From: Lingula anatina | Taxonomy: Eukaryota > Animalia > Brachiopoda | Reading direction: 5' to 3' | Assembly: GCA_051362555.1 (NCBI GenBank) | Contig: CM120643.1 | Coordinates: 1,054,001-1,118,000 of the forward strand | DNA length: 64,000 bases | Part shown: positions 863 through 57,900 of the stretch, one piece after another | Layout: each line of letters starts with the position of its first letter | Position numbering within the stretch: position 1 is the first letter of the stretch | Notes under the pieces: model-generated | What the model saw: the letters and a program-made list of their open reading frames with translations, nothing else | Told to the model about the DNA's origin: nothing | Database searches by the model: none | Program-made: the position numbers and the translations under genes

Positions 863-1002
863 CAGGGGCGGACTGAGGCTGGGTTATTAAGTTTACACTG
901 ACTGGTATCTATCTTTCTGTCATAAGACGGTCAACAATAGAGGGTTTTATCAACAAAGATAAATTGAAAGGCTGTCAGAAAATAACCCTCAATCCGCCCC
1001 TG
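863..1002. mobile_element. Small hAT-like MITE (CAGGGGCGGA termini)
   Basis: caggggcggactgagg...cctcaatccgcccctg terminal inverted repeats; no clear TSD. Confidence 0.5.
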
Positions 1003-2532
1003 GTTACTGACAATATATGATAGCTTTACGGAAATTGCCGAAGGCTAAAAAATGCCTTCAAAATTTACTTTTAACAGTAATAATCAAATTCAATCTACGG
1101 ACTCAATCTTCCCACTTTCCTATGTAGTTAGGGAGAATAACGTGAAAAGGAGACTTCGACTGATCTGCCATTACTATATAGATTGTAACACAAGGGTACA
1201 TTTACCAGTGCATTAATCATCTGCAAATATCAACAGCAATGATTACATACAGTTTTCTCGTCATGTTTGCTCACACAACACCTTAGCATTCATTTTGTGT
1301 TAAGATATAGTAATAACTTTTAAAAAGTATATACAAGTAATTTCAAACGGTTTTCACCGAGTTACAGTGTTACTACATGTATGACCACTGTCTCACCCTG
1401 TCTAAGTACAAAGTATGAAAAAACATCTAAATCAGCATCCCGACTTTGACTCTATATACTTAATATTCATCACACATCTGACATTACAATAACACAAGTG
1501 AACAAAGCAAATCGGCAGTGGAATTATGCCTGATAAGGGGTATTTATCAGAATGAGTAATGTAAGATAACATTAAAAATTTAATAAACAAATATAATTTA
1601 ATTTGTCAATAGGTACAGAAAAATTAACTTAATTTAGCAGCCAGCAGATAAAATATTGGTTGATATATTAAGTTAATCATTTTAAAGCTATTGACAAACG
1701 AAAAGCAGCATGGTTATAAAAACATACACTAAATAAAACTGTTCAACCTTATAACTTGATAAGATCAATGGGATATAAAACAACGTGCGCTGGCAGATTC
1801 AGGATAGTAGCAGGTAGTAGACCCATGATGTCATCATTGAAGTGAATATATCGATTTGCAAAAATTCTGGGAATTTAACAGTGCTTTGGATGTGGGTCGG
1901 TTATTTCTCCCCATTTTGTAAAGGACTGATCTTGAGTCCGATATTTTGCCTTGGAAGGAGGAGAGAAATTCTAAGGGCCGATAATATGTATCTGCTAGCG
2001 ACGTGGAGATTAAAAAAAAAACATTACAGTATGTCATTTCAGAAACGTACAGATCTATTTTAACGATAACCTATACTTCTTCCAAAGAATGCCGTCAGCA
2101 TTTATTTAACGCCCCCTTATATAACTTTTTAACACATGAGACCTAGCTAGGTCTGGATAAATTATGTCTGGGTCATTGTAGATTTACCACATTTTTAACA
2201 CGTGTGTTTACTATTTTTAACAATGACCTGAAATTTGAAACGTGTACTTATTATCTGCTTTGTCTGACATATAAGAACTTGGCTGCTACTTCTCCGTTAA
2301 CTATTTCAACACACTTGATAATCTACCGACCATAAAAACAAACATTGTTCTTAAAGTGTTTACATTTAGTATCTTAAAAAAAGCAATTCCCCGGCACAAT
2401 TGAGGATGAATGTGAAACTGTCGTTTTGTCCTGTATATGTGAACGTTAAGGTAGGTCAGTACGCCTGTATACAGACTGGAAATCCAGGCAAGTCTTAGGG
2501 AGATGTCACGCGATATATAGATATGTGGATGC

Positions 2533-3420
2533 AATGCGGGTTTTCACTGGTAATTTACGACATGTCTTTGGAAGATACCACATGATATATACTGTACGGG
2601 CCAGAATAGAAAAACAAAAGTCTTTGTTTTGTCCGTTGCAATTGGCTCAGTGTTATTGTCTAAGTGGACGTAAGTGGTTATTTAACCGAAATAATTGTGA
2701 ATATCATATTTATATCATGAGTTAATGCAGTGTTGGGAGGCAAAATGTAACGAAATGAATAAGTCATTACTTACCCTGGATACTTCAAGCTTCTGAACGG
2801 CCTTCACGCGACGCTTTACCGTCTTCTCGAACTGTTCACTTTCTCCTGTGTGTGGTCGTTTCATTGTCGCATGAATGGTAGGGACAGAATCTTCCTTCAA
2901 CGTCCTTTTTGTCTTTAAACCCAGCGCGTTCATAAGCGGGGATGCGAAGCAATCTTCCTCGAAGTGTGCCCCACAAAGAACGGCCTGAGACGATGGTGAG
3001 GGTGCATTGAATTTCTTCCTTTTTGTTTGCGGAAACCTATGCAAGCTGTGCCCAGTATGCTTCGAGTTTGAGCAGTTTTGGGCAACACACTTTTTAACCA
3101 TGATACAATACGGACGCTTTTATAGAGAACAACATCAATTTAAACGCGGCACCAGACTGACATAGAAAGCGGGTCTCGTGTATTATATAGGTCAACCCCA
3201 GATCTACCAAATACGTGGCAGCCTGTGACAGGCTATATGGTCAAGGTGACTTGTTTTTATGTAGGTCAGCAAATTCGCTCTAAAAGCATGCGTTTTTTAT
3301 CGATTTATTCACTAAAACGATGTCAGAAAATTTTGAAAAAAATATTTTTGTGCAGAATTAGTGTTCCTACATCAGGTAATAACAATATTTTAGGGTGTAA
3401 AACGGGTCAATACCTGCTCT
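2533..3420 (-). mobile_element. Truncated Kolobok-like DNA transposon with a THAP-domain exon (2775-3101)
   Basis: ORF MVKKCVAQNCSN..HRFP..LCGAHFEEDCF..LKEDSVPTI is a C2CH THAP domain with a GTAAGT donor at 2774. The terminus ...caatacctgctct abuts TTAA (3421-3424). THAP plus a TTAA target fits Kolobok. Confidence 0.65.
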
Positions 3421-26837: not shown

Positions 26838-26839
26838 GG

Positions 26840-26883
26840 TAATAATAATAATAATAATAATAATAATGGTGATGATGATGATG
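26840..26883. repeat. (AAT)n/(GAT)n microsatellite at the Penelope junction
   Basis: Directly visible. Confidence 0.85.
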
Positions 26884-29800
26884 AAAACATATCCAATGAA
26901 TACTTCGAAAAACTAACTAAAAATTCTTACTTTTATTTAGTCTTTAATAATTTTTTCAGTTAGCGAGTGATTTGAAGTTTTTTTTTCTTTTTTTTTATAT
27001 AGAGAGAGTGAATAAGTTTGTTAATACAGCCTTATTTCACAAATGAATGCTCTTGCAAGATACAGCGTTTTCCGTTCGTTGTGCAAAAGAAGTGTACTGT
27101 CGCAAATGTTGGACCCTTCAAAACGCAATCTACAGTCGCAACTAACACAATGTACAGACTTTGCTGCACAGCGCAGATTTACCCAATGTGCTGACAACCG
27201 TCTTCCTTTTGGTTCTCCTCGCCAGCAGTTCATTATTCATGACCAACGCAACGAAATTTCGACATCCGGGCATTAAAGAAGTGTTCTGTGGGATTATCGT
27301 TTCTTGCACAAAGCTTAATAAACTGTGTTTTACGTCTCAGATTGCCGAGGTCGATCAGCGAACGATTTTAATAGATTATCTAGTCAAGGACTATAATACA
27401 TTATAGCAAACAAAAGAACTGCTGTGCTGAACTGCTCACATTCGTGTAAAATCAGTGAAACCACTGTGCGCATATAAATTAACGGGTCGTCCTCGGCGGT
27501 GAGCACTTTCCGTCCACAGTGTAATTTAATTGACCGGGGTAAAACCTCGCCATGCACGAGTTAACTGACGCTGAGGTAACATTAAAGCTATTGAACGTCC
27601 TTATTAACGCAATAAGGGATTTTATAGTGGAAATCAAACGCCGATGTCAGGGTTGTGAGATCTCGACGGTTAACATTATTCATAACTTCGTGACTAGTAT
27701 TAGTTTTCGTATTGTTTTTCCTCTTGTCTCCACTACCAAAGCAAGATAACTCTGATTATACATGTCTGCAACCTGTACACGTGTTAAAATATTCTCGTTT
27801 GAACTTAGTAGGTAATTCTATGTATACGAAACAATTTAGAACTAAGGGACCGAATTTGATCTGAGAACCAGAATAGAGCCATAACATACGCCGTGGTGAT
27901 TGTTGAGACACGAGTTTCTTGGTGGTAGCTCATACTTTAAGAGGTGTAAAAACCTGTAATAGAGAGTAAACCTCGAACGCTGGTATTTAATTGATCTAAT
28001 CGACCTTAGGCCAGGCCGTTACCTGAGTAGCAGTGCACAATGCTCGTAAATAATTTAACAAATTGATGCTAACAAATTTTAGAAGTTAACCCTAACAAAT
28101 TTAACCCTGTCCGCAATGGAACATCTCGGAACAGATACAGCAATAAATGCTGTCGTTGTGCATATGCAGTCATCCGCGTCACACACACACAAAAAAAAAT
28201 TTAACATCCATGCCCAAACATAAGATAAACCGCGAATTGGAGGCAGCTGCGGATGGATTAGCAGCATCCCTTAACTTGGGTCCGCGCTGGCTTCACTGAT
28301 GACAGCTTAATAGAAGAATTCAATTGAAGTCAATATTGTAACATTTGACCCTAGTAGAATACAGGATTTAAAACGCAGACACATTAACAATGATATAAAA
28401 GCTTTCAATGTGCATTCTTTCCCTGTTCGCTGTTTCATTTGCGGATTGGGGGGGGGGGGGGTAGGGGGTTCTGACCCCCCCCCTTCGGTTTCTGCAAAAA
28501 ATCCAAATTTTTTCTAATATTCAAAACTAGTATTCCCCTTTTTGAGATTGAAAATTTGATTTGCTGAATCATAGTTTTAAACCGAACCAAATGACACCGT
28601 TTACCCTCCAAACCCTCAATTTTTTTTTTTTTTTTTTATTGGGGGGGGGGACCTTGAGCAGGCCCCGAAATCCACGCCAAGGGGCGAGGGTCGGTATTGT
28701 ATTCGAGGCCTGTCATGCCTAAATAAAAGAAAAAATACAGATCCTCCCCCCCCCCTTCAAATAATTCCTTATACGCCCCTGCAATTCTGTATATTGGCTA
28801 GAAATCTACTTTAATTATTTTGATCGGCTCGGTACTTATGTTCAATGACCTGGCTGTGCCCATTGAAATGGGACTTTCTTGTGCACTTGTACACAAAAGG
28901 CACACTGAAATCACAGAGACACACGCTAACAACACTCAGATGTAGACAGACAAATATTTCTTCAGCAGAGATTTTCTTGCGAGTTAACTTGAACATTACA
29001 ACACTGAATATGGAGGACGCATCGATAACAGGAAACGAAACGTCTTCAAGCGATTACAATCATGAAAATGTCAGTTTGAAAAACTGCAGTAAGAATTTTT
29101 AAACGAAACATCATATTAATGTTCTCATTTATGTATGTGGTGAACCATTATGGCATTCCAGCGCCTTTGTTTTGTGGATCGCGATCAAAATATAAAAGAA
29201 TATTGTTTTAATTGATTTAAAAGATACTTTAAAAAGGTCATTTAAGCTACTATTTCCTGGGCACATTGATAAAAATGCAAATAATTCATTCAGCTGATAA
29301 AGTTCACACACACACACAGAAATTCAAAAAACTGTTTTTAAAAGACAATTAAAACTCAACTTTAGTGTTAAAACGAGAAACAGCTTAAAAGGACAAAAGT
29401 TATTGAAAAACCTCTTACTAGCTTTAGACAAAGGACCCCTGGCAAATAAAAGAACTTCACGTAGGCATCACAAATACAGAAATGACCTTTCTTTGTGAAC
29501 AACAGCCCCAGGTGCGTCTCGGAGACGAGTACAATTACAGAAGACAAAAACGTTTCTTCTAATGAGATAAAAGACCAGACAAAAGAAAACAGATCCACGT
29601 AACTGCAGCCACCCAGAGGAGCTCACAGTTGCTCAAGTTACCAGGGTTATTGTGTTACAATAGCATTAAGGTGTCCTGTCGCGTCCATATGGTATGACAC
29701 TGAAGACAAACCAGAGGTTATTGGACACGTTTGGGGTCATTATCACGCCACATCTGGACAGCGTTGCTGTCTGACCACACCTCAGCAGAAATGAACGCAG

Positions 29801-38080: not shown

Positions 38081-38835
38081 GTCGTAATAATTCCGTTGCT
38101 TAAAAAAACTTGTAAATTCAAATCATTACATTAGATAACTCAAATTGTAATAAAATGATGGAAACATTCATGTAAACTCCCAATGTCTATAAGTGACATA
38201 CATTCTTTCCCTGAATTAAAGTTGATATCAATCCTCTATGCATCTTCAAACAGCTGAATCAGGTGATAAGTCGACCTCATTTGCAGCTCAAAAGATAGGA
38301 ACGTGTCACCTGACCCTTTTCGTGACCACAACTCCTTAAAAATAAGAATGGCATACATGTGTGTTTTCACAATTAAAAAACGGATGAATGGTTCCAAGTA
38401 CAGTATAATTGCCCCCTGCGTCATACATTATGACATTTAATTAAACTATATATTAAGAGGCTTTTTAATTGATTGTGCCATATATAAAAATATGTGTGTA
38501 ATAAATGATGTGACAATGTTCTTGACTTGCCCTAAGAAGACCACATATAGAATAATACCGTCATTTATCAACAAGGCACTATAAACATCTGCTCTACATA
38601 ATTTCTTATTTAGTATATTTGTCACAAATACTGCTAGTTGAGGAGTGCATTTAACGTACAAAGACATCGAGGAGTATATTTAAACGCACCAGTTACAGTC
38701 ACACCAGCCGTACAGCTACAGTACATTGTTGTAGATGATCCGCTTATTGTGGGTTTACAGGTAATATTTTAGCAGCCATTCTGATATATTGTATTCATTT
38801 TCACAGGTGTAAGACCTTTGGGTTGATAGGTAACT

Positions 38836-39622
38836 ATGGCAACAACAGCTGGAATACTCCCTGAAATCCCAAGAAATGAAACATAAAATTATTTCCGCAT
38901 GCGACTGCTCTTAGAGCGTGCAACTGACGTGCTTCGAGATGTTCTCAGGACTCAGCTACAAGCAGCTTATCCGGGACTGTTTGATCCCAGTAAAACTGAC
39001 AAACTTTTTGACGTTCTTGACAATCGACAAGTCAAACATTCCTTGCTGTCATTGAAAAAGAGGAAGGTAGTGAACTCAAGTCAAATGAAACTCCTGTACC
39101 CCTCTGGCACCCCTTCAACAACTGTGACAACACAGGACTTAGATATTACACTTGTAGCTGTCTTATTAAGAAACATCACCAATCTGAACCCTCATGCTAA
39201 ATGGGAAAACCCACCAGCTTCCGACACCTCCATAGAGGCCAACATTGGTAGAGTGAAGACCTACCGCAACAACCACATGCATGGAAGTCCTGGCATCACT
39301 GACATAGCATTTCAAGCAGAGTTTAACGACCTCAAACAAATTCTTCTTTCACTGTCGCCAACATATACCAGCGATGACTACGACAAGCTTATTATTGTGC
39401 CTATGGATGCTAAAGGTAATTGAGTTTTATAAAGCAGCTTTCGGGGAATAAAAATAAAATGTATTAAATTACACGTAGTCAAACCCGCGTTTTTTGTCAG
39501 CCAAAATAGTAAAGTCCTTTCCAGGATTCAGGAAATTTTTTTATTTGCAAAAATTGAAAAACAACCTCAGTCACAAGGAGGTCTCTCTGAGTGCTTTACT
39601 AGATACAACTATTAGTATTTTT

Positions 39623-39702
<80 letters not shown>

Positions 39703-42700
39703 TAAGTACAGGTATTGCCGCGTTGCAACGTTTTTGCTGTTTGTTGTCTATATATTGGTTAGGTATGTTGTCTAGTAACTTTAAAAATCATTTCACTGAG
39801 TTAATAATTACGTCTTTACAAGTGTTATAATGAACTTAATTCTGTTGGTCCACTGTAAGGCGTTCAGGCCATCTACATGTATATGTACGTGTATGTAAAG
39901 TGGTCAAAGATATGTAGTGTGAAAAGCTCCCCAGAAAGTCAATCTGCCAAGTTGAGTTCAGTCAGTGCCAAGCAATACGTTTAACCCGTATCTTAGGTGT
40001 AGTACCATTAAACAATATAGATTTTCTATCAGTATGGGGCAAAACAGTACTTTGTTTCCATGATATAAATTTATTTCCACTTCATAGCTAGAATTATCTG
40101 AATCATGATTCTGTGGGAGTTGGATTATTATTATTATTATTATTTTAAATATTTATTTAAAATAAATTATAATGCCACATTGTGTAATATTCCATATTAT
40201 AAAAAAAAATTATAGTTGAAAGAATGACAAGAAAAATTATACGTGTTTAATCATGTATATTCTTACTTTTTGATATTTTCAGTTGCCCCGTGTCAGCTCC
40301 TCTCAGTGCAGCTACCAGGGAAACTTGCTGACCTTAAAGGCCGTGAAGACTTGGTACAGCAAATACAGCAACACATTGCAGGTGAAACCCGAATTGTTCT
40401 TCTTACTGGGATGGGTGGTATTGGGAAGACATCGGTGGCTATCGAGGTCGGGCATCGCGAGCAAAATGTTCTTTATTTTGATATGAGACAAGCCACCGAC
40501 CTTGAATCTGTCAAGTTATCTCTGGTCCAGCACTACCACCCAACACGATCCCTGAAAGATTTATACAGTGACTATCAAAATATACTCATACAAACTTTGT
40601 CTAGTTTAACTTCAGACACTGTAATTATTTTTGATAACAATGATGAGGTCATTAAGTCACATTTGCAGAACTTTCACACTTTGCTTCAGAATGTTTTAAA
40701 TTCATCAAAGCATATCACTTTGTTGTGTACCAGTCGTGAATCATTCAGTGTCATGTCACATAATATGGCTGTCCTAGACGTACCTCCACTTGATAAGGCA
40801 CCCTCCATTGATATCCTTTGGGAAGGAAAATCCACTATCCCCACTGATAGTGAGTCAAAAGTGTTAGGTGAAATAGCAGAGAAGTGTGGAAGGAACCCAC
40901 TTGCACTGAAATTATTAGCAGTTCAACTCAAGAAAAAACATGCGCAGAGAGTATTAGATAGGATAAAAAACAAAAATGTTATTGAAAGCCTTAAGGTACC
41001 AAATCTTCCTGCCTCTCAGGAAATGATGGCATGCCTGGATATGTCTTACGAAACACTGAGTACTGAAGAACAAAAATTGTTTAGAGCTTTACACATATTT
41101 CCAGTTTCGTTTCACGTGGGAGAAGTTTCAGAAATTTTGGAAATAGATGAGGATGAATGTGAATCTGTCCTTGACAGTCTTTGCAACAAATCCCTCCTAA
41201 CTGCAGACCACAGTTTGTATGATCTCCACCCACTATTAAGAGCTTATGCAGAGTATCAGGCAAAAAAGGACCAAAACGAAATGTCCCGCATTCAAGATGC
41301 ATACTGTCAACATTACATGAAACAAATCCCCCTTCTGTTATTCAAATTGGAATACCTCCCTTCAAAAAAAGCGCACAAAGAAGCGCAAAATGCACTACCA
41401 CATTATAAAGTGGTCGCTAAATTGCTGTCAGATCAACTATACAGCAAAAAACAACACGGCAAAGAAATGCCCATTGTATGTGAAGATCTGTTTTTAATTG
41501 CAGATGTATTTCAAAACGTTTTCTTGTACACTGAAGCCTTAACGATACTTCAAAAACTGGAAATATTAAATGATAACAATTTCCCCTCTGAACGAGTTGG
41601 CACTTGTATTTATGGCAAAATCGGTGATGTGCTGCATGGGATGGGTAACTCCGCAGAGGCACTTACATATTACGATAAATCTCTGGAAATTCAAAAAGAA
41701 ATACATGGTGAGAAACACACTGATACTGCCAATGCATACAACAATATTGGTAGTGCACTATGTGGAATAGGTAAGTACACAGAGGCACTTACATATTATG
41801 AGAAATCTCTTGACATTAATAAAGAAATACATGGTGAGAAACACACTGATACTGCCAATACATACAACAATATAGGCAGTACACTATATGCCACAGGTAA
41901 GTACGCAGAGTCGCTTACATATCATGAAAAATCTCTAGAAATCCACAGAGAGATATTTGGTGAGAAACATCCTGCTACTGGTAGAACATACCAGTATATT
42001 GGCAATGCACTACATGGCACAGGTAAGTACGCAGAGTCACTAATATATCATGAAAAATCTCTAGAAATCCAGAAAGCAACACTTGGTGAGAAACACCCTG
42101 ATACTGGAAAGGCATGCATAAATCTTGGCGTTACATTATATGGCATGGGTAAGTACAAAGAAGCACTGTCATATTATGAGAAATCTCTTGAAATCCAGAA
42201 AGAAATACTTGGCGAGAAACACACTGATACGGCTAGGGCATACCAGAATATTGGCAATGTACTATGTGACATGGGTAAATATCCAGAAGCCTTAACACAC
42301 TATAAGAAATCTCTTGAAATCCAGAGAGAAATACTTGGTGAGAAACACCGTAGTGTTGCAGCGATATACCAGGTTATTGGCAATGTACTATTAGAAATGG
42401 ATAGGTACACAAAGTCTTTAACATATCATGAGGAATCTCTTAAAATTTGGAAAGAAACACTTGGTGAGAAACATCCTGATACTGCTAGGTCATTCATGAA
42501 TATTGGTAATGTACTATGCAAAATGAGTAAGTACACAGAGGCACTTACATATTATGAGAAATCTGTAGAAATCCAAAAAGAAATACTTGGTAAGAAACAC
42601 CCTGATATTGCTGGGACATACCAGAATATTGGCAATGCCTTATTTGACATGGGTAAGTATAATGAGGCACTTACCTATCACGAGAAATCTCTTGAAATCC

Positions 42701-43536
42701 AGAAAGAAATACTTGGTGAGAAACATCCTCATACTGCTAGGACTTACGTCAATGTTGGCAATGCACTGTGTGGCATTAATAAATACGAAGAGGCACTTAC
42801 CTATCATGAGAAATCTCTTAAAATCCAGAAAGAAATGTTTGGTGAGAAACACCGTGATATTGTTGTGACATACGGATGTATTGGCAACGCACTATTTTCC
42901 ATGGGTAAGTACGCAGAGGCACTCAGCTATTATGAGAAATCTCTGGAAGACCAAAAAGAAATAATTGGTGAAAAACACACTGATACAGCTAGGACATACA
43001 CCAATATTGGCAGTGCACTATTTGAAATCGGTAAGTACGCTGAGGCACTTACAAATTATGAGAAATCTCTTGAAATCAAGAAAGAATTACTTGGTGAGAA
43101 ACACCCTGATACTGCCTCGACATACCAGGGTGTTGGCAATGCACTATGTACCATGGGTAAGTATTCAGAAGCACTTACATATTTTAAGAAATCTCTTGAA
43201 ATCAAGAAAACATTCCTTGGAGAAAAACACCCTGATACTGCTTCGACATACCAGGGTGTTGGCAATGCACTTTTTGGCATGGGTAAGCACTTTGAGGCAC
43301 TTGGTTGTTATCAGAAATCCCTCGAAGCTCATGTAGAACATTTTGGAATCAGCCATGGCAAAACTAAGGCTCTGAATATTACAGTCTGTTTTGTAAAAAT
43401 GTTGATATTGACCAACGTACTGATGAATATGAGCAAATATCTTGCCACTGAATCGATAGTTAAAAGCAAATTTAGACAAGCAAGTCGATTTTTAAGTTTT
43501 ATTGGTTGGAATTTCAAGCTTTATTACAAATTTTGA
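38836..43536 (+). CDS. NLR-like STAND protein: DZIP3-type HEPN + NB-ARC + ~14 TPR repeats; in-frame TAA at codon 17 (intact 1256 aa from Met 38899)
   Basis: Exons 38836/38899-39415 and 40283-43536 join in phase 1 (AAAG|GTAATT..TTTCAG|TT). HEPN: DLDITLVAVLLRNI, RVKTYRNNHMH. NB-ARC: GMGGIGKT, VIIFDN, CTSR, GRNPLAL, LHPLLR. 42-aa repeats: EALTYYEKSLEIQKEILGEKHPDTA. Confidence 0.9.
38899..39415 (+). CDS. HEPN (DZIP3/hRUL138-like) exon
   Basis: RxxxxH motif RNNHMH and the DITL..LLRN family signature. Confidence 0.85.
39626..39700. repeat. (TA)n microsatellite in the HEPN/NB-ARC intron
   Basis: Directly visible. Confidence 0.95.
40283..43536 (+). CDS. NB-ARC + TPR exon
   Basis: 1097-aa ORF 40243-43536; Walker A/B motifs and a TPR array. 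Confidence 0.95.
41600..43370 (+). repeat. Coding tandem repeat, 126-bp unit, ~14 copies (TPR)
   Basis: Recurring gagaaatctcttgaaatccagaaagaaatacttggtgagaaacaccctgatactg. Confidence 0.92.
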
Positions 43537-45593
43537 TAAAATTTCCAGGTTTGGTTGGCACTTGCATAATATTAAAATGACAGGTTTCACTTCTTGGGAT
43601 GATCACCATAAAACGAATGGGGGCGAGATCACGGATGAGAACTTTGTGTTCATGTTTCCCTTTTTATGTTCTTTGTAAGGTAGTAGTGAGCTTCTTGCAC
43701 TCTAATTAAGGGCCACGGTTTGCATACGCCATGTACCCGTATGTAAGTAATGGAGGACTGACCCTCAATTACACGAACCCCTTGTTTTGTCACAATATGA
43801 CAAATAGACGTATCACAATTTCAATTGTGCATCCACATATCTATATCATGTGATATCACCCCAAGATTTGTCAGGACTTTCCAGTTTATATACCGGTACA
43901 GAGTTCCATTTTTCCTGACCTACTCTAACCTTCAAATATAGCTGTGAACTCACATGAATCAATACATCTCCTAAGGCAAAAATGCAGTTTCACATTCATC
44001 CTCAACTATGTGCTGGAGATTTGCTTCATTTTATTTCACAGGTACTAAACGCAAACGCCTCAAGAACAATGTATTTTTTTATTGGAGGGTTATGAAGTGG
44101 GTTGAAATAGGTTGCGTACCAGTAGACAAGTCCTTGTATGTCAGTCAAAACAGATAATAAGTGCAAGTTTCAAAATTCAGGTCATTGTTAAAAAATTATA
44201 CACAAGTGTTAAAACTTTAGTAAATCTACAATCACCGAGACATAATTTCACCAGATCTAGCTAGGGTTCATGTGTGTAAAATTATATAAGATGGACGTTT
44301 CATAAATGCTGACGGCTTCTTGGAAAGAATTGTAGATTGTCGTGAAATACGAACTGTGTCATTCTGAACTGCCATGCTGTGGTATTTTAAAATCCCATGT
44401 CGCTGGTAGATGCAGATTAGCGGTCCTTAGAATTTCCCTCCAAGGGAAAATATCGGACTCACGATCAGTCCCTTACAAAAAGGGGAGAAACAACAAATTC
44501 TTCAACCAAAGCACTGTAAAATTCCCAGATTTTTTTGCAAATCAATGTATTCACTTTATTGATGACATTATGGGTCTCCGACCTGCTTCTATCCTGAATC
44601 TGCCAGCGCACGTGATTTTATATCCCAGTGTTCTTATCGAGTTTTAAGGTTGAACAGTTTTATTTGGTGCGTTTTTTATAAAAAAAATGATTTTCGTTTG
44701 TCAATAGCTTAAGAGATGATTAAGTAAATTTATCAACCAATATTTGGTCTGCTGGCTGGTAAATTAAGTTAATTTTTCTGTATCTATTGACAAATGAAAC
44801 TGTATATGTTTATCAAGTTTTAATATTATCCAACAGCACGTATTCTGATAAATGCCCTTATCAGGCATAATTCCACTGACGATTTGCTTTGTTCACTTGT
44901 GTTATTGTAATGTCAGATGTGTGATGAATATTAAGTGTATAGTTAGAGTCAAATTTGAGATGCTGATTTAGGTGTTTTTTCATACTTTGTACTTAGACAG
45001 AGCGAGACAGTGGTCATACATGTAGTAACACTGTAACTCGGTGAAAACCATTTACAATTTCTTGTATATACTTTGTAAAAGTTATTACTATATCTATGCA
45101 CAAAATGGATGCTAAGGTGTTGTGGGAGCAAAAATCACGAGAAAACTTTATGTAATCATTGCTGTTGATATTTGCAGATGATAAATGCACTGATAAATAT
45201 ACTCTAGTATTACAATCTATGTAGAAATGGCAGATCAGCCGAAGTCTCCTTTTCACGCTTTTCTCTCAATCTACAACGTTAGTAATACCTTAGGGAAGTG
45301 GGAAGATTGTGCCCGTAGTTTGAATTTGATTATAACCGTTAAAAGTATATTTTGAAGGCATTTTTTAGCCTTCGGCAATTTCCGTAAAGCTTCGGCATGT
45401 GTGACAGGTATCACATATTGTCAATAACCAGGGGTGGATTGAGGGTTATTTTCTGACAGCCTTTCGATTTATCTTTGTTGATCCATCCTCCATTGTTGAC
45501 CGTCTTATGTCATGACAGAAAAATAGATACCCGTCAGTGTAAACTTAATAACCCAGTCTCAGTCCGCCCCTGATAGCACTATTCAAGATATCA

Positions 45594-45660
45594 GGATTTG
45601 ATGGGCCAGTGGTAACGTCCGTGGTTACCAAACACGGCGGTGTGAGTTCGATCCCCACTC
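45594..45660 (+). pseudogene. tRNA-Gly-derived sequence, second copy
   Basis: GGATTTGATGGGCCAGTGGTAACGTCCGTGGTTACCAAACACGGCGGTGTGAGTTCGATCCCCACTC followed by a T-run. Confidence 0.55.
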
Positions 45661-46761
45661 TTTTTTTAAATCATTGTTGTGGTTCAGTGATTAATATGAC
45701 GGGTATCAGCTAGTGTAGTTCTTAATTTATTATGATAAAGTATACTATGATGTGATATTACATGACATCATATATAAAGTATACTATGATGTGATATTAC
45801 ATGACATTATATATAAAGTATACTATGATGTGATATTACATGACATCATAAATAAAATATACTATGACATGAAATGATATTACATGACATCATATATAAA
45901 AAATACTATGATATGATATTGCATGGCATCATACATAAACTGTGCACTAGTACATATATATTACAAATGTGTACGAAGTACCTTCATATTATTGTTGAAA
46001 GATGTGTCACTTTTGTCAATTAAATATTATTATTTCTCCTGCTGTTTTATGTTGTATGGAAGTTCTGAGATTAAGAAAAGAACGTGCTAGCACAAAAGCC
46101 ACACATAAAAGTCACACCTAATTATTTCTCGAACTAAGATTAAATTAGTCATTTAGTCTCTGAAATGTTTCAACTTTCAATTGTTTACAGCACTGGTCAA
46201 CAGCCAACACAGCATCGTGTTATAAACTGATGAATATTGGAGTGTGTTAATTGAGAGCTTGTACATGAGTTTAAAAAAAAACTACGCATTTTTATTTCGT
46301 TTCGTTTAGTGATATTAATTTAAACGTAAAATTGTAATTTAAACGTAAATGTAAAAATACAAACATACGCAAACGCTTTGATCAAGTAATGGCAACACAC
46401 CCCTTGCACCCCATATTGATCGTAAATTAACCCTGTTTTAATTAACAAGCACGTAGGCTTCCCATGTGCCTCTGATGGTTATATATATATATTATATATA
46501 TTATTCCACATTGTGTAAACACTAGGTGTTTGTTGTTGACGTGGGTCCGGCAACAGAGCACACATTTTTCCACCAGTTTTAAAGTCTTATTGTAGCTCTC
46601 GGGCGTTTAAATATAAACTCCAAATATGTTCTGATCATATAAAACTGATAGCTACCTTCAGTGAATCCATGGCTGATTTACCGACTTTATTTTAAGCTCA
46701 CATTATATTAAAGATAAGAGTGGGTCAACTTAATTGACTGAGGTCACTTACAAATGACCAG

Positions 46762-47449
46762 GGGCCGGTTTCACAAAGCAGTAGTTAGTTAGAACAACTA
46801 ACTACTGAACTACCTCGCTAACGAGCAAACTTAGCGATTTTCGAGGGGTGTTTCACGAAGCAGTCGTTAACTCATCGCTAAGTTCAGTCGTAAAGTTCGG
46901 TCGTTAGTTCTCTCGTTACTCACCGTACTCTCGAAACCGTCTGCCGGAAGTGGAATTCTTGCGTAAAAGTGTCACGAAAGCACTAACTCTCCAATTTTTG
47001 GTGGCTGGAAATGCATAAGAACGTCTGCTTTGAGGTCGTCGTAAAGGATCTCCACCACCTTTTTGCCGCTCTTTTTGTCACAGCTAGGCGCAACCTCTCG
47101 TAAATTGCATCATTGTGTGTATATTCTAATAGATTCTGCCTTTCATGAAAACGTCGTATTCTACGTTGCCGTCTGGCGGTACGGATAGCAAGAAAAGTAG
47201 CCGCCATATTGGATACAAAGACAAACGACAGACAATGGTAACTAAGCAACCCTTTTTATTTCACTCATTACGCATGCGTACGATGAAACTCTAGAGTTAG
47301 CGACTGGTCTGACCAGTCGTTAAATATCCAAGGCAACAACGAGACAATAACGAGCGAGAGAACTAGCGACTGCTTCGTGAAACGGCACTATAACTAGCGA
47401 TAGGCTAACTACCGATCGCTAACTAACTACTGCTTTGTGAAACCGGCCC
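46762..47449 (-). mobile_element. Non-autonomous Harbinger element, copy 1 (~690 bp)
   Basis: TIR gggccggtttcacaaagcagtagttagttag; CAG TSD; empty site in the left arm (~99-101). Retains a transposase-like N-terminus MAATFLAIRTARRQRR..FHERQNLLEY..IYERLRL. Confidence 0.88.
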
Positions 47450-49885
47450 CAGGGTCTTGTCTACGTCAGTGTGCGATATGTGTGCAGACCGAGTTAACAT
47501 GTTATCCAGATCAGAGAAGAAATGGAGATAAGGTTTTTCTATTTTAGGCATAGACTAATCTGGCGAGATTCAGTTCAATCGAGGAACAATTTGATATTAA
47601 TTGAGAAATTGCAAGCTGGTTAAAAGTAAAATAAGAAGTACGTATATGTACGGTTACCATACTCAAACAACAGAAGAGAGAGTCAGATGAGCTGTGATAA
47701 AAAACCGTGTTCAATACTTCTTGTTGCCTGGCAATAGCTAGGTTAATACAGAGGAACAAAAACAAGCGTCTTGTTAATGTCACCAATTCCTAACCCCGAT
47801 CCAGTTCAGTGTTATGATTTTTTTAATTTTTAACTTTTTTTAGAATTAACATGGACTTGTCATAGAAACATGTACTACTAGAAAAATTCTGACATACATG
47901 TTTCTATCAATACGCTTTATTAATTGTAGATAAATCAGAAGTTTTTTGTCTTTATCTTTCACAAACCAGTTATATATGATGACAAGATAAAGACCGCAAC
48001 GGTTGATCTGGAAAAACAGTTTGTTTTGAATACTACGAGGCGGTCTTATATGACAACACCGCAACTACCTGCTATACCTAGCTGTCACTGCGGTATTGTA
48101 TACACATACAATCTGGGGATCAGTGCTGTACTTATTTTGAACAGGTATTTGTATGTGACGTGATCAGAGCAAAATATACGTTTCAGATACAATCAACCTC
48201 TAGACGTAACCATTGATAAAATGCCAATGGATTGCTATTAATAGTTATTTACCCTGTATAGACTCCGATTGCTACTAGAATGTTACCAACATTTCTCATC
48301 TACGCATAATAGTTCTATTCACGCCCATAGCTTTGTATAAACACTGATGAGATACGTGCACCTGCGCTTTCCACATCGGCTAAGATTGAAGTATCATTGT
48401 GTTGACAACCGCTAAGTTGTACGTGGATACTGCATTGTTACCGAGCACCGCAAGCACAATTGTGTTCTGCTGGCGGAGACTGCATTGTGTTTCGCTGGAA
48501 GAGGCTGTATCTGAAAGCAAAGACAAATTACTAAGACTTGCTGCAAATCATTTGGAAAGCTGAGAGGTCTTGGACAGGTCACACAGGACACTCACGTGTA
48601 AGTAGACGCAGATGAGAGACGCGGTAAGGAAAACCTAGAAGAGATCGACGAGCACAGGAGACAATTCCACATCGCAGTTTTAAAAGTCAATTAAAGAGAC
48701 TAGTGGCTTAGCGGTATCAACGAATAGTGCGATCTACATGCACGTACATATGTTTTGTCGGTGTTTGAAAGTGTGTTAATATGTTTTCACCAGAAAAAAA
48801 AATTAGAAACGTTTCTCCACATGTCATCTCAAGCAGCCGTTCGTGATTGAGGGATTCAAATACCGTTTAACGTTATGTTACAGAGGCATAACACCATAAC
48901 TGTATTTCAAGCCGAAATAGGTCGACATATGAATATCCCTCTCTCCAAATGTGTAAATAACCTCAATACATCACGACCAACGAACTCAGTGATGACATCA
49001 TAATATAAGATGTCGAATGTCATGCTGATGTCTCGTTATCTTCGCCGTTTCCCAGTCCTGGGACCTGTTCTTCCAGCATGGAGGCAGGGGGCAGGGTGGG
49101 GGTGACATGGTCGGAACACGTGGGGTATAGACGTAAACGGGTACAACTTAGTCGTTAACATGGGCATCGATACGATTCTGAGGCTGAGCCACGGTGGCAG
49201 GTTTATCAAAGCAATAACGACAATTTAAAGCAAAAACAACCCACAGCGCTGGTTATCAACCCCAGCTGTCATTGAATCACATTTGTAATATATACCCTTC
49301 CTTCATTTCCTTTGTTTTATAAATACATTACAGTGCATGCTAGCTGTCTTGCTAACATAGACGACGTGTTTTCTTGTGGGAATAACAAACGACATTTTTT
49401 TGTCAGCAGCGTGTGCAATAGGTTATGTAACTGTATATTAATTTGTTTAGCCGCTACCTGATTTAGCGGTTATTTGTTGTTCACTCCGTTTGCACAGGTA
49501 TCGACAATGGATGTTTTTAACAAACCGATGACCTAGTTCCACTATTGTTCACAACACACGATTCAAGGGTCACATAACTGAATCTTTTTTGTGGTCGCCA
49601 TTTTGCTTCACATCTGCTTTGGTAGTCCGGGATGCGTCGTACACGGATACATTTTATAGATACAGTAGATATAAGCTGATGCACTAACAGAGATTTTATA
49701 CGAAGTCATCGCTGCATCGTACAAGGTATGTTTTAACTTAACAGAAGCTGGTAATATACTACAAGGCCTAGTAAGTCTATCGTGTATCAATGTATCAATG
49801 TATGTGACCAAACGTCTTAGAGTATTCATGTGTTCGTGCAGCATAATACACCAGCCCCAGAAAGTTAGGAAACATCGCTATTCCG

Positions 49886-50571
49886 GGGCCGGTTTCACAA
49901 ACGGTTGTTAGTTAGCGATCGGTAGTTAGCCTCTCGCTAGTTATAGTGCCGTTTCACGAAGCAGTCGCTAGTTCTCTCGCTCGTTATTGTCTCGTTGTTG
50001 CCATGGATATTTAACAACTGGTCAGACCAGTCGCTAACTCTAGAGTTTCATCGTACGCATGCGTAATGAGTGAAATAAAAAGGTTGCTTAGTTACCGTTG
50101 TCTGTCGTTTGTCTTTGTATCCAATATGGCGGCTACTTTTCTTGCTATCCGTACCGCCAGACGGCAACGTAGACTACGACGTTTTCATGAAAGGCAGAAT
50201 CTATTAGAATATACACACGATGATGCAATTTACGAGAGGTTGCGCCTAGTTGTGGCAAAAAGAGCGCCAAAAAGGTGGTGGAGATCCTTAACAACGACCT
50301 CAAAGCAGACGTTCTTATGCATTTCCAGCCACCAAAAATTGGAGAGTTAGTGCTTTCGTGACACTTTTACGCAAGAGTTCCACTTCCGGCAGACGGTTTC
50401 GAGATTACGGTGAGTAACGAGAGAACTAACGACCGAACTTTACGACTGAACTTAGCGATGAGTTAACGACTGCTTCGTGAAACACCCCTCGAAAATCGCT
50501 AAGTTTGCTCGTTAGCGAGGTAGTTCAGTAGTTAGTTGTTCTAACTAACTACTGCTTTGTGAAACCGGCCC
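49886..50571 (+). mobile_element. Non-autonomous Harbinger element, copy 2
   Basis: Same TIRs and internal sequence; flanks CCG/CTG. Confidence 0.88.
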
Positions 50572-50717
50572 CTGACTTATTAAAATTTACCATAACAGAT
50601 AAGGAGCATATATTAACCAAATATTTATATACCTAAAGATTTTCTCGCTACATATCCATCATAAAGTATGTGAATCATTGAAAGACAATTTCATGTTTAC
50701 GAACTATTTTGGTCCAG

Positions 50718-51397
50718 GGGCCGGTTTCACAAAGCAGTAGTTAGTTAGCGATCGGTAGTTAGCCTCTCGCTAGTTATAGTGCCGTTTCGCGAAGCAATCG
50801 CTAGTTCTCTCGCTCGTTATTGTCTCGTTGTTACCTTGGATATTTAACGACTGGTTAGACCAGTCGCTAACTCTAGAGTTTCATCGTACGCATGCGTAGT
50901 GAGTGAAATAAAAAGGTTGCTTAGTTACCGTTGTCTGTCGTTTGTCTTTGTATCCAATATGGCGGCTACCTTTCTTGCTATCCGTACCGCCAGACGGCAA
51001 CGTAGACTACGACGTTTTCATGAAAGGCAGAATCTATTAGAATATACACACGATGATGCAATTTACGAGAGGTTGCGCCTAGTTGTGGCAAAAAGAGCGC
51101 CAAAAAGGTGGTGGAGATCCTTAACAACGACCTCAAAGCAGACGTTCTTATGCATTTCCAGCCACCAAAAATTGGAGAGTTAGTGCTTTCGTGACACTTT
51201 TACGCAAGAGTTCCACTTCCGGCAGACGGTTTCGAGACTACGGTGAGAAACGAGAGAACTAACGACCGAACTTTACGACTGAACTTAGCGATGAGTTAAC
51301 TACTGCTTCGTGAAACACCCCTCGAAAATCGCTAAGTTTGCTCGTTAGCGAGGTAGTTCAGTAGTTAGTTGTTCTAACTAACTACTGCTTTGTGAAA
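50718..51397 (+). mobile_element. Non-autonomous Harbinger element, copy 3 (right TIR tip lost)
   Basis: Nearly identical to copy 2, preceded by CAG; ends at ..gctttgtgaaa. Confidence 0.88.
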
Positions 51398-53909: not shown

Positions 53910-54492
53910 CCTACTGCAAATCTACTGCAAAAACAACCTAAATTGTAATAGCGTTTCTGTCTACTTCAATTCTACTACGAGAACTTTGTCATTTTGTTGG
54001 GGAAAATGTTACTACTGCAAATCTGCTGCAAAAACATTGCTTAAATGATCAGCGCGTTTCTATCTACTTCAATTCTACTACGAGAACTTTGTCGTTTTGT
54101 TGGGGAAAATGTTACTACTGCAAATCTACTGCAAAAACATTGCTTAAATGATCGTCGCGTTTCTATCTACTTCAATTCTACTACGAGAACTTTGTCATTT
54201 TGTTGGGGAAAAGGTTACTACTGCAAAACTACTGCAAAAAGATTGCTGAAATGATCGTCGCGTTTCTATCTACTTCAATTCTACTACGAGAACTTTGTCG
54301 TTTTGTTGGGGAAAAGGTTACTGCTGCAAATCTACTGCAAACACATTGCTTAAATGATAAGCGCGTTTCTATATACTTCAATTCTATTACGAGAACATTG
54401 TCGTTTTGTTGGGGAAAAGGTTACTACTGCAAATCAACTGCAAAAACATTGCTTAAATGATCGGCGTGTTCAGTCTACTTCAATTCTACTGC
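53910..54492. repeat. 103-bp tandem array, ~5.5-6 copies, subterminal to the EnSpm element
   Basis: ctacttcaattctactacgagaac recurs at 53961, 54064, 54167, 54270, ~54373 and ~54475. Confidence 0.92.
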
Positions 54493-54930
54493 GTGGACTT
54501 AGTCTGTTGGTGAACCGCTTTTTAAACGCCTTTTTGTTTTCCAATGGCTCCTTCTTACCACTTATTCACGCTCGATCATCTTCAATTTTGTCTTACCAAC
54601 TTCGGAGACTTTCTTATAATGAATAGAATTGGCCTATGCAATTCATTTAAATACTGTTGTCCCTTTGAACGTCAATCATCCAGAAAAGTAAAAAGAAACG
54701 ACAGAGGTTTCATACTGTGCAATCTTAGATGAGCACTACTATTTATTGTAAATAGTTAGTTTACTTGTTTACTTATACCGGAATATGCTCACAGATAGAG
54801 TTTTTCAACAAGTGTAAGACCTCATAATACGTTAACAAAATACTCTTAACCAAGTGAATAAACAAATTGCAAAAAAATAATAATAATAAATAAATAAAAA
54901 TAAACTGTCAATAAGATATAACTACAACTA

Positions 54931-57900
54931 CTAATCTTTCTCTATAAAATTAGGGAATTGAGCCACAAATTGTTTAGAATCACTACACATATACATTAAC
55001 GGTTCTTCTAACTGGCTAATATCTATAACTTTAATTTTCCCAGAAATAACTTTCTTAATATGACATGACAGAAATAAATTTTCACTACATTCATTCAGTT
55101 CTTTAATAATTGCAAAATATCTGTAACCATTAACAGCACCGCATTTGATAAAATATTGAATTTCACAAAAGCCCTCTTCCCACTTTGCAGTAAAGGAATT
55201 TCTTTTTTTTACTGCATTGTACGACTTGCTGCAAAAAACAAATCCTTTCTGGTAAACTCTTAAAAATTTTGCACACTTAAAAACCGCACCAACAATTCTT
55301 GTCAAAATGTGGGCAATATTAGTGGGAGGTACAAAATCAGAACTAGGTCCTAGTATGTGAGACGCATTCCCTATACGGCCTGAAAATTTTAAACTTGACC
55401 GCTTTGTCATTTGTTGCAGCAGGGCCTGCACGGCACCATCCTTCTCTTTTTCAATAAGCTGGGGTAATTTCTGCTGTATGCAAACCGCAGTGACGATTTG
55501 CATTTCTGCTTGCTGAGTGCCGTGAAACTGCTTCCTGAGGTCGCCATTCAAGCTTTCATAAAAAAAAACAGCTGTGGGCCCATAGTGGACCCAGATCTTT
55601 GACTTTTGAAACCAAATGTAGTAAAGAATGCGCATTAAATGTACAGTACCTTTCTCCATAAAGTTTATCTAAACCTATATTGAATTTTTTGAAATGGTAA
55701 CTTGCTTTGTCTAAGTCATTTTTCATTATGCAAGACTTAAGAAGTAAATAAGTACCTATGACCAAATGAGTAAAATGAGCAAGAAATTCTGGTGGGAGTA
55801 TATCATACAAAACAGGCAATGAATAAAATATGAGAAAGGTACGAAACTCAGATGCCTTCCAGTCTCCAAAATTATCAATTCCTCTAGGCATGCGGGAAAT
55901 GAGTCTGTTTGGGGCCATGTTTTTCAATCTCATGTTCACTGTCTCGATCATAGAATATAGTGACCATTTTTCATTCCTTGTGTCTGCTCCGACCCATAAA
56001 GAGATCATCATTTTCACTAAACCGAGAAGAACGCAATGCATATAATCAATACTCTGGCCTCTAATAATATCAAATTTAGGCAAAAATGACATCATAGACA
56101 CTCCTTTGACACCCATTATTGGTTGCACTTCTCTACGCTTTCCATTCAAATAGTTTCTCTCAACCTCAGCAGCATATTTCAGCGTATCCTTATGTGTTCG
56201 AGTCTGTGCATGGCCTGATTCTTGGTCAGTTTCAAAAGGATAGATGTGTGATTTTCCACGCTCACTTAAAAAACAAGTTTCACCTCTGCTATAACAACAT
56301 GGGCACCCAAAGTTCCCATTAAACTGCACCATTTCACTCATGAGACATCGTGCAGGAGCATCTGCTACTGATGAAATTATGATGGCGCGCACTTTTGTTG
56401 GTACAGAAGTGATGGTCATGCTCACACTTTAAATATAAACAAAAAAATAATTAACTCATGCCAAGTACTTCACTGAAACTGAAAATTATTTATTTATTAG
56501 AATGTCAAAAATAATAATAATGAAATGCCAGCCTTATTAAATGTTTGTCATGTTAAATACCCTAGTGCGGTACCACTAAAGTCAGATTTATGAGTGTGTT
56601 TGCAGCATCTGTAAAAGGGTTTAAACCAAACTTATCTATACCTCATATCTCTATTATGAACAAACAAAAAAGCCTGATGTACATGAAACCAATTTTTGAG
56701 ATGTAATACTATATATTGCTGTATATATTACAACTATGGATTTGATAAGCGAAACAGCATTAAGATGGTTATAAATACCTTCAAATAATGAATGGAATTC
56801 AGTCAACAAAGATCCCAGGAAAAGTTTCATATTTGGTTTCTGATAACCAAACCATAAGCCAAGAAACAACCTGTTATCTCTAGTGTACCTAAGAAAGCAA
56901 AGCAGAAATAGGACATAAAATATATTTTTAGATTGTAGGATCAAAGCCCTAATAACATACTTGAATAATTCCACATGCTCAATAATGCAGGTGCTCATTG
57001 TTTAATACTAGATTTAAGCAAGGGTGTCTCTTTCACATAAACATTTTAAATTAAATGTAATCCTGGTGGTACTGAAATTAACAGACCATAAGTAAGGTAC
57101 AAGATTTGCTTTACAATACCAGGCAATTAATTACTGACTTAAACAATTGACACTTTTTCCTCAATGGCAAATGTAGGTCATTTTGGTTATGTCACAAGAA
57201 GGACTGAATAAAAAACAAAAAAAATAGGCTTCTCTATAGTCCAATTTTATGCAGTAATAACACAGCAAATTTCATACACAAATAATTTTTTTGTGATTTT
57301 AAATTATGTATAGGAACGTTTTCTTCTGATGCATATTTCACTTGTAGGTGTTTTTTTTTAACTTTTCCCCTTTTTATTGTGTTTGCATTTTGAGTGGAGT
57401 AAATCTTGATAATTAATCATGTCATACCTTTTCTTCATTGATCACAGCATACAGTGGCCACACACTAAACTTTGATGAACGGAATAAAGCTGCTCCATCA
57501 GTGTTCACTTGTAAGGATAAATGTAGCTCATTGAGCTCACTGGAACATCCTGAAAATACATATTACATATACATATTTATATTAATTTACTTGGTTTTAT
57601 GCAGTGGCTTCCTAGTTTAACCAATGACAGTGACAGCCAGGGGGCAGATTATCTCAGGTCTGATTTTTAAAAGTCTTTGTAAAGTTGACCGTCATACACA
57701 TCCCTTATAGACCCATCTCGATCTCGTAAGCTTTCTTTGGTTTGTTTTAGTTCTTGAAGAACATCTGGTCCTAAAAAGTGAATTTGTGCATGTAAACTTA
57801 TTTAGAAGTATGTAGGCCTAATGTTGCCCACAAAAATAATGACATGAACCTAAATTTAGAAAATTATTCTAAAAATTGTAAAAAAAAGGGTCATGAGCCA

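What the first reader, a model, noticed from the sequence alone, without database searches (positions are those of the whole stretch)
38836..43536. HEPN-NB-ARC-TPR receptor: an animal STAND with a putative RNase effector
Seen: a HEPN exon with an intact RNxxxH motif spliced in frame to NB-ARC and ~14 TPRs. Established: HEPN RxxxxH domains form RNase sites on dimerisation (RNase L, Cas13, bacterial toxins). STAND ATPases oligomerise on ligand binding, and effector-STAND-TPR is the layout of bacterial Avs and many fungal NLRs. DZIP3-like HEPN fusions occur in invertebrate genomes but, to my knowledge, are functionally untested. Inference: a ligand-triggered RNA-degrading immune or death receptor, with the effector on its own phase-1 exon and so easily shuffled.
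Basis: partly seen in the sequence, partly recalled or inferred. Interest (0 to 1): 0.72.

Follow-up and report, generated by a model that had tools for sequence, protein, structure and literature searches.

The report
Brachiopod RNase-headed immune receptor, broken copy
This is one gene of a brachiopod family that joins a likely RNA-cutting domain to an ATP-switch domain and a fast-changing repeat region predicted to sense foreign proteins, a layout already catalogued in corals, and this copy has an early stop codon, so it is probably inactive or mis-assembled.

Summary
The architecture is real: a DZIP3-type HEPN exon with RNxxxH (Pfam E 6e-33), a phase-1 intron, then NB-ARC and exactly 14 TPRs of 42 aa. 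RNA reads of a close paralogue splice at the predicted junction. All 8 RNA reads and 10 contigs laid over it read G, mostly from paralogues, so this copy is a private null allele or an assembly error. The gene belongs to a Lingula family: 11 HEPN-STAND paralogues, 10 keeping the motif. TPR groove positions show dN/dS about 1.8 against 0.43 elsewhere. A 95%-identical HEPN sits on a ROC-COR gene model at the same boundary, nested among the STAND-linked HEPNs, which supports exon shuffling. HEPN/NB-ARC/TPR is already listed in coral gene tables, the RNase idea is in print, and this scan met the layout in two other genomes. RNase activity and dimerisation are untested. Verdict: new member of a known, untested kind.

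The parts
38836..39415 (+). Coding part of the HEPN exon (DZIP3/hRUL138-like HEPN, 193 codons plus one base; ends in phase 1)
   Evidence: PF18738, E 5.8e-33; model of 38887-39414 pLDDT 95.8
38884..38886 (+). In-frame TAA at codon 17; relatives have Glu here
   Evidence: Glu in 13 of 14 named Lingula relatives; G at 38884 in 8 of 8 RNA reads and 10 of 10 contigs of two DNA runs, mostly paralogues
38899..38901 (+). Next in-frame ATG (M22), inside the first HEPN helix; possible restart
   Evidence: helix
39265..39282 (+). RNNHMH, the Rx4H motif of HEPN RNases
   Evidence: R, N, H kept in 70, 68, 65 of 72 aligned HEPNs
39416..40282 (+). Phase-1 GT-AG intron, 867 bases, with a TA run at about 39626-39700
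   Evidence: spliced reads of a close paralogue
40283..43536 (+). Last coding exon: STAND ATPase, arm, TPR array, C-terminal tail; open for 1083 codons
   Evidence: model pLDDT 84.4
40345..41052 (+). NB-ARC (AP-ATPase) match; Walker A GMGGIGKT 40408-40431, Walker B VIIFDNND 40621-40644, LCTSR 40723-40737, GRNPLAL 40888-40908
   Evidence: motif names recalled
41221..41238 (+). DLHPLL at the end of the winged helix (MHD-type motif, with HP in place of HD)
   Evidence: aligned to AfsR; motif name recalled
41593..43356 (+). 14 TPRs of 42 aa (126 bases); the inner 12 are 64-86% alike in DNA; variable at groove positions

Best explanation
The gene joins a DZIP3-type HEPN exon to an NB-ARC ATPase and 14 TPRs, and its intact relatives likely act as intracellular immune receptors that would oligomerise on binding a foreign protein and so pair their HEPN heads into an RNase, while this copy has a stop at codon 17 and is probably a null allele or an assembly error. 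Steps: (1) the TPR groove binds a ligand (inferred from groove-focused diversification); (2) binding releases the ATPase, which swaps ADP for ATP and oligomerises (inferred from STAND proteins such as Avs7); (3) clustering brings two RxxxxH motifs together into one active site (inferred from other HEPN RNases; recalled); (4) RNA cleavage stops translation, kills the cell or destroys invader RNA (inferred). Shown: domain order, motifs, splice junction in family transcripts, family expansion, conserved head and switch with a variable sensor, the same HEPN on a ROC-COR gene model, and the stop. As assembled, this copy would give a 16-residue peptide, and its mRNA would be a candidate for nonsense-mediated decay, with the stop 529 bases before the last junction.
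For: Pfam HEPN_DZIP3, NB-ARC and TPR_10/12 are above their cut-offs. RN...H is kept in 10 of 11 HEPN-STAND paralogues. The HEPN model's two best structural matches among 48,161 chains are HEPN proteins, Csm6 (4rgp, Z 7.2, rmsd 4.1, 118 aligned) and AbiF (8vz6, Z 6.9, rmsd 5.2, 146 aligned); AbiF is also Foldseek's first row. The ATPase's best solved relatives are AfsR (E 3e-10) and an archaeal STAND-TPR protein (6mfv). Identity to the four nearest complete paralogues is 84-89% in HEPN, 85-91% in the nucleotide-binding part, 46-57% in the arm and 41-59% in the TPRs. In 105 paralogue repeats the six most variable positions are 5, 12, 15, 34, 8, 16; five of them map to TPR positions 2, 5, 9, 12, 13, the ligand-binding face in PMC1261162. 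In the window's 12 inner repeats dN/dS is 1.82 at those five and 0.43 elsewhere. The same pattern is reported for fungal NB-ARC-TPR receptors (PMC4986451). The stop is absent from every read and contig laid over it.
Against: No animal DZIP3-type HEPN is shown to cut RNA in the papers my searches listed. The structural matches are weak: Z under 8, Foldseek E 0.4, none at E 0.001, and no solved structure matches the HEPN by sequence. The dN/dS figures are pairwise counts on non-independent repeats; the top-4 and top-8 variable sets give only 1.27 and 1.24. Expression is faint: 2, 0 and 8 reads at 95% likeness in three RNA runs, one of them 99% or more alike; nothing links it to infection. No ligand is known. 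None of the runs laid is known to be the window's source, so a real null allele cannot be told from an assembly error.
Confidence: 0.6

Rival explanations
1. The stop is an assembly error, and the locus is an ordinary intact member of the family that works as described above.
For: T at 38884 was seen in 0 of 8 RNA reads and 0 of 10 contigs. The X2 contig reaching into the 5' flank (38763-38912, 4 other letters, 1 gap) reads G there, by subtraction of depths. In X1 a mismatch at 38884 follows from one contig that starts at 38885 on its third letter and another with one unlisted difference. The rest of the frame, 1083 codons included, is undamaged.
Against: The nearest contigs differ from the window at 4 of 301 and 4 of 151 letters, so they are other haplotypes or duplicates and do not test this one. 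Fast-turnover receptor families often hold null alleles (general knowledge). One paralogue has lost the motif His (P0008).
Confidence: 0.4
2. The HEPN head binds RNA or a partner protein but does not cut; the protein signals as a scaffold, like HEPN versions that have no nuclease role.
For: No test of activity appears in the papers listed. PMC3710099 describes eukaryotic HEPNs lacking the motif as probably non-catalytic. Fold matches include sacsin, Swt1 and MtlR at Z 4.6-5.5.
Against: R, N and H of the motif are kept in 70, 68 and 65 of 72 diverse HEPNs while neighbouring positions vary. 194 of 202 pearl-oyster copies keep it (PMC9646362).
Confidence: 0.2
3. The family works in self/non-self recognition between individuals, or in control of symbionts, as fungal het-type NLRs do, and not in pathogen sensing.
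For: It has the same 42-aa TPR type, groove diversification and repeat-number variation (3 to 13 repeats found per paralogue) as fungal NB-ARC-TPR genes.
Against: No data here on tissue, induction or allele pairs. Brachiopods are solitary and do not fuse as colonial animals do (general knowledge).
Confidence: 0.1
4. Translation restarts at M22 and gives a protein with a clipped HEPN but an intact switch and sensor, acting as a sensor-only partner or dampener of intact paralogues.
For: The long exon is fully open and its repeats still show the groove pattern. An in-frame ATG lies 12 bases after the stop.
Against: The first ATG has the stronger context (A at -3, G at +4). The restart removes conserved Asn18 and Arg21. 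No RNA read with the stop was seen. A recent stop explains the open exon equally well.
Confidence: 0.07

Closest known systems
Coral DZIP3-like HEPN / NB-ARC / TPR genes (orthogroup OG0000193 in PMC10236652, Additional file 17)
   Same: Same three domains in the same order; 8 of the first 30 HEPN rows seen (of 323 occurrences) have it, all Acropora digitifera.
   Different: Orthology not tested; I did not fetch those genes. The nearest coral STAND found is only 25% identical and carries DUF4559 with a weak Swt1-like HEPN match, not DZIP3 (P0013), so the Lingula fusion may be independent.
Bivalve and cnidarian HEPN-NACHT NLR-like proteins (PMC9646362, PMC8260672)
   Same: N-terminal DZIP3-type HEPN with Rx4H, lineage-specific expansion, RNase role proposed.
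   Different: Those use NACHT with LRR, WD40 or TPR; here the switch is an AfsR-like AP-ATPase.
Fungal and brown-algal NB-ARC-TPR receptors (PMC4986451, PMC3341825)
   Same: 42-aa TPRs in fungi, diversifying selection on the repeats, birth and death of genes; brown algae also pair NB-ARC-TPR and ROCO families as candidate receptors.
   Different: Their effectors are not reported as HEPN in the passages seen. Algal repeats are one exon each, whereas here all repeats share one exon and the effector exon is what moves.
Bacterial Avs STAND receptors (e.g. Avs7, PMC12803255)
   Same: Effector-STAND-TPR; ligand binding to the TPRs drives tetramers that switch on an N-terminal nuclease.
   Different: Shown by experiment there, inferred here. 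Bacterial ATPase hits are at most 27% identical and mostly regulators; the Avs7 effector is a Cap4 nuclease, not a DZIP3-type HEPN.
HEPN RNases Csm6, AbiF and RNase L/Ire1 (KEN)
   Same: Rx4-6H motif; best fold matches are Csm6 and AbiF.
   Different: Activation in Csm6 and RNase L is by oligoadenylates (recalled); here it would be by STAND oligomerisation. Fold scores are below Z 8.

Membership tests
DZIP3/hRUL138-like HEPN (PF18738) | Profile score above the curated cut-off | tested here: met
   114.1 bits against 27, profile positions 2-139 of 144
DZIP3/hRUL138-like HEPN (PF18738) | Rx4-6H motif with Asn after Arg | tested here: met
   RNNHMH at 39265-39282; definition from PMC9646362
HEPN RNases | HEPN helical fold | tested here: inconclusive
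   Confident all-helical model; top matches are HEPN proteins but at Z 7.2 and 6.9 and Foldseek E 0.4
HEPN RNases | Homodimer with one composite active site | not tested
HEPN RNases | RNA cleavage dependent on R and H | not testable with these tools
   Needs a bench assay
STAND, AP-ATPase (NB-ARC) class | NB-ARC profile, Walker A and B, sensor TSR, GxP, winged helix | tested here: met
   35.8 bits against 23.5; motifs located; AfsR E 3e-10 over residues 5-331; 6mfv first in the fold search; HP where plants have HD
STAND, AP-ATPase (NB-ARC) class | Ligand- and ATP-driven oligomerisation | not testable with these tools
   Inferred from Avs7
Animal NLR in the strict sense (NACHT + LRR) | C-terminal leucine-rich repeats | tested here: not met
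   The C-terminal part is 14 TPRs and a short helical tail
Animal NLR in the strict sense (NACHT + LRR) | NACHT-class NTPase | tested here: inconclusive
   NACHT is not among the 25 best of 41 Pfam families shown, and NB-ARC is; the other 16 were not shown
Coral HEPN/NB-ARC/TPR group (OG0000193) | Domain order HEPN, NB-ARC, TPR | tested here: met
Coral HEPN/NB-ARC/TPR group (OG0000193) | Common descent of the fused gene | not tested
   Coral members not fetched; nearest coral STAND hit has a different N-terminal family
Lingula HEPN-STAND-TPR family | Groups with the Lingula paralogues by its ATPase and shares the exon boundary | tested here: met
   In a six-row clade at 97/100; boundary residues match P0001, P0003, P0004, P0005
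Lingula HEPN-STAND-TPR family | Uninterrupted frame from the first ATG | tested here: not met
   TAA at codon 17

The most novel reading that the evidence does not exclude
In lingulid brachiopods one phase-1 HEPN exon is a plug-in RNase that has recently moved between two unrelated nucleotide switches, a STAND ATPase with a diversifying TPR sensor and a ROC-COR GTPase. This would give an invertebrate a family of ligand-triggered RNases, a counterpart of RNase L with many specificities, costly enough that null alleles such as this one segregate. Basis: P0067's HEPN is 95% identical to P0005's, sister to it at 96/95, and holding the STAND-linked HEPNs together without it is rejected (p-AU 0.0026). 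It rests on predicted gene models and an untested RNase.
Probability: 0.3. Interest if true: 0.65.

Novelty: new member of a known kind. Interest (0 to 1): 0.33.

Why it matters
HEPN is among the commonest N-terminal domains of NLR-like proteins in corals and bivalves, yet I found no test of its RNase activity in the papers searched. The Lingula family is a compact test case: two coding exons, an effector 84-89% conserved, a sensor diversifying at its groove, and a near-identical effector on a second kind of switch. If the RNase is real, animals without RNase L-type signalling would have a direct receptor-to-RNA-destruction route. This copy is a poor starting point because of its stop, and the layout itself is not new.

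Tried and rejected
No whole genome is held for this window, so paralogues were counted from a protein collection only. No RNA holder was listed for the long exon; raw-read runs of the same species label were laid instead. Run X14 gave no reads, which is no test. The junction was read from loose ends at the donor, not from a joint across the intron, because the stretches laid covered only the first exon and its flanks; 19 loose-end rows were not shown, so X19 cannot be scored for it. The HEPN has no sequence match among solved structures and no Foldseek match at E 0.001. I looked for a small intron or other acceptor that skips the stop: no AG lies between the stop and the conserved NYFR that follows it directly, so this was rejected. 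I considered that the window's HEPN exon could serve the neighbouring COR-caspase gene: it is on the other strand, and no ROC exon or second HEPN was found in six frames, so no support. Two ATPase searches found no animal relative beyond Lingula except one coral protein; these are word-based searches, so this is weak evidence of isolation. The atlas search gave cnidarian TPR-rich clusters driven by the repeats. The pearl-oyster supplement could not be read; it holds per-species HEPN and NACHT counts that may include Lingula. Sequence and place look-ups among earlier scan notes were blank. For the fold alignment A2 I used 71 short hits of the 150 listed; for partner domains 48 mostly long hits; the tree left out P0068, P0069 and the six most distant rows.
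Full report
Observation. The window holds a two-coding-exon gene on the + strand. The first exon runs from ATG 38836 to a donor at 39415 (580 coding bases, phase 1); an 867-base GT-AG intron follows; the second exon runs from 40283 to the stop at 43534-43536. Pfam gives HEPN_DZIP3 on the first exon (114 bits, cut-off 27), and NB-ARC (35.8, cut-off 23.5) and TPR_10/TPR_12 on the second. The motif RNNHMH is at 39265-39282. There are exactly 14 repeats of 42 aa at 41593-43356.

The stop. The 14 named Lingula relatives have Glu at this place in 13 cases and Ala in one; the closest, P0069, has the same flanking residues as the window. At 85% likeness, position 38884 read G in 3 of 3 and 5 of 5 RNA reads (runs X17, X19) and in all contig depth of two DNA runs (4 contigs in X2, 6 in X3). 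Most of these are paralogues: the cleanest RNA reads had 5 and 9 other differences. Two contigs come closer to the locus. In X2 one spans 38763-38912 with 4 other letters and 1 gap; three letters are listed, and depth subtraction places the fourth at 38884. In X1 a contig over 38612-38912 has one unlisted difference, and the next contig aligns from 38885 on its third letter, which implies a mismatch at 38884 (inference). No read or contig with the stop was seen. None of these runs is known to be the window's source, so a private nonsense allele and an assembly error remain open; I put them near 60:40. A restart at M22 (38899) would remove Asn18 and Arg21, kept in 53 and 58 of 72 aligned HEPNs, and the first ATG has the stronger context. 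The stop lies 529 bases before the last junction, which would make the mRNA a decay candidate by the usual rule (recalled).

The junction. In X17, 4 reads leave the alignment at 39415 and continue with a consensus that matches 40283-40312 at 28 of 30 letters, the only place in the window within 8 mismatches. Reads near the donor carry other letters at 39391 and 39403 (6 of 6), so this shows the splice for a close paralogue or divergent allele. Four annotated paralogues join the same residues. Expression is faint in the runs laid: 2, 0 and 8 reads at 95% likeness from 9.5-12.4 million records each, one of them at 99% or more.

The family. A search with the ATPase region returned 66 proteins; the best 12 are from Lingula anatina (39-80% identity), and 11 of these carry HEPN_DZIP3, the twelfth being a partial model. 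The window is thus from a lingulid brachiopod or a close relative. Ten of the 11 keep RN...H; P0008 has lost the His. The window's ATPase falls in a six-row clade at 97/100. Beyond Lingula the nearest hits are one coral protein (25%, with DUF4559 and a weak Swt1-like HEPN match at its N-terminus) and bacterial ATPase-TPR proteins at 20-27%. Among solved structures the ATPase is closest to AfsR by sequence (E 3e-10), and the exon's model (pLDDT 84.4) matches an archaeal STAND-TPR protein first (6mfv). It is an AP-ATPase-class STAND, not a NACHT-LRR NLR.

The sensor. Against the four nearest complete paralogues, identity falls from 84-89% (HEPN) and 85-91% (nucleotide-binding part) to 46-57% (arm) and 41-59% (TPRs). 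In 105 repeats from 11 paralogues the most variable positions are 5, 12, 15, 34, 8 and 16. With an offset of three, set from the recalled TPR consensus and checked by the frequent Asn at position 6, five of these are TPR positions 2, 5, 9, 12 and 13, the concave ligand-binding face (PMC1261162, passages). In the window's 12 inner repeats the ratio of corrected non-synonymous to synonymous distance is 1.82 at these five positions and 0.43 elsewhere (1.61 with all 14 repeats); resampled subsets gave 1.36-2.46. For the six-position set, neutral star-tree simulations at matching synonymous divergence reached the observed value in 0 of 300 runs, and in up to 14 of 300 at the highest divergence tried. 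The top-4 and top-8 sets gave only 1.27 and 1.24, and repeats are not independent, so this suggests diversifying selection and does not prove it. Fungal NB-ARC-TPR receptors show the same 42-aa repeats and concave-face selection (PMC4986451, passages).

The effector and its mobility. The HEPN model is confident (pLDDT 95.8). Its two best matches among 48,161 chains are the HEPN proteins Csm6 (Z 7.2) and AbiF (Z 6.9), ahead of 5.7 for the next; Foldseek ranks AbiF first at E 0.4. These scores are below the level that the tool treats as clear. R, N and H of the motif are kept in 70, 68 and 65 of 72 aligned domains. A search for longer proteins with this HEPN returned 11, all Lingula, among them P0067, HEPN-ROC-COR, 88% identical to the window's HEPN, and P0068, which ends in HEPN. 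P0067 switches partner at the same residue as the STAND genes, and P0068 and P0069 end with the residues that read-through into this intron gives. P0067's HEPN is 95% identical to P0005's and sister to it (96/95); forcing the 12 STAND-linked HEPNs together without it is rejected, p-AU 0.0026 (the group follows architecture but was named after the tree was seen). Both isoforms of that locus hold the fusion. This supports recent shuffling of the exon, or gene conversion; it rests on predicted gene models. More distant relatives (733 at E 0.001) put the domain before NACHT, CARD, caspase, IIGP GTPase, kinase, ankyrin and B-box partners (48 scanned).

How it most likely works. By analogy with Avs7, where ligand binding to TPRs drives tetramers that activate an N-terminal nuclease (PMC12803255, passages), intact members would bind a foreign protein in the TPR groove, oligomerise through the ATPase and pair HEPN heads into a composite RNase site. 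Only the anatomy, splice, expansion and sequence patterns are shown; binding, oligomerisation, cleavage and outcome are inferred.

What is known. PMC3710099 (passages and section 16) defines the DZIP3 family, lists fusions to TPR, NACHT, CARD, DEATH and LRR, and proposes RNase L-like defence for HEPN-NACHT fusions. PMC9646362 (passages; supplement unreadable) reports over 50 HEPN-NACHT genes in pearl oyster and infers RNase activity. PMC8260672 (passages) finds HEPN the commonest NACHT partner in many cnidarians. PMC10236652 (passages; first 30 of 323 HEPN occurrences in Additional file 17) lists HEPN/NB-ARC/TPR in 8 of those 30 rows. PMC8195603 (passages) notes HEPN among shuffled effectors in cnidarians and brachiopods. 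PMC3341825 (abstract and outline) describes NB-ARC-TPR and ROCO families as shuffling receptor candidates in a brown alga. I saw no description of the Lingula family and no functional test of an animal DZIP3-type HEPN in the listings; subscription papers are not covered, and a 2018 survey of Lingula immune genes (recalled, not seen) may list these genes. Two earlier notes of this scan report the same layout in other genomes.

Verdict. A new member of a known but untested kind. The additions here are a Lingula expansion with a diversifying groove, a probable recent move of the HEPN exon onto a ROCO gene, and a stop codon that makes this copy a null allele or a mis-assembly. Interest 0.33.

Noticed in passing
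window 14798-19251, minus strand: A COR exon (18079-19251, 90% identical to residues 444-834 of the HEPN-ROC-COR protein P0067) is followed by caspase exons at 16403-16624, 15614-15889 (SHG and SACQG motifs) and 14798-15013: a likely COR-caspase gene, head to head with the HEPN gene 19.6 kb away. No ROC exon or HEPN exon was found upstream on its strand within the window.
   Followed up: partly
window 24615-26912, minus strand: Open frame of 765 codons with reverse transcriptase and GIY-YIG matches, a Penelope-like retroelement (name recalled), between the two immune-type genes.
   Followed up: no
window 54931-56428 and 60146-60814, minus strand: Overlapping frames with a weak Transposase_21 match (E 0.009) and an unmatched 222-codon frame; likely a decayed DNA transposon.
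   Followed up: no
window 286-2533 against 43828-46243: Inverted pair of about 2.2 kb at 81% identity, starting about 300 bases after the gene's stop.
   Followed up: no
window 46759-47453, 49885-50574, 50714-51397: Three copies of a 690-base element at 97-98% identity in mixed orientation, with short inverted ends.
   Followed up: no
window 53911-54514: Tandem array with a unit of about 102 bases.
   Followed up: no
window 38600-38816: DNA run X3 gave no contig depth over the 5' flank while X1 and X2 did; the locus may be absent in some individuals, but a hole in contigs proves nothing.
   Followed up: no
protein P0093: An unnamed relative carries a DZIP3-type HEPN before a kinase and a Ribonuc_2-5A (KEN) domain, two HEPN-superfamily domains in one RNase L/Ire1-like protein.
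   Followed up: no
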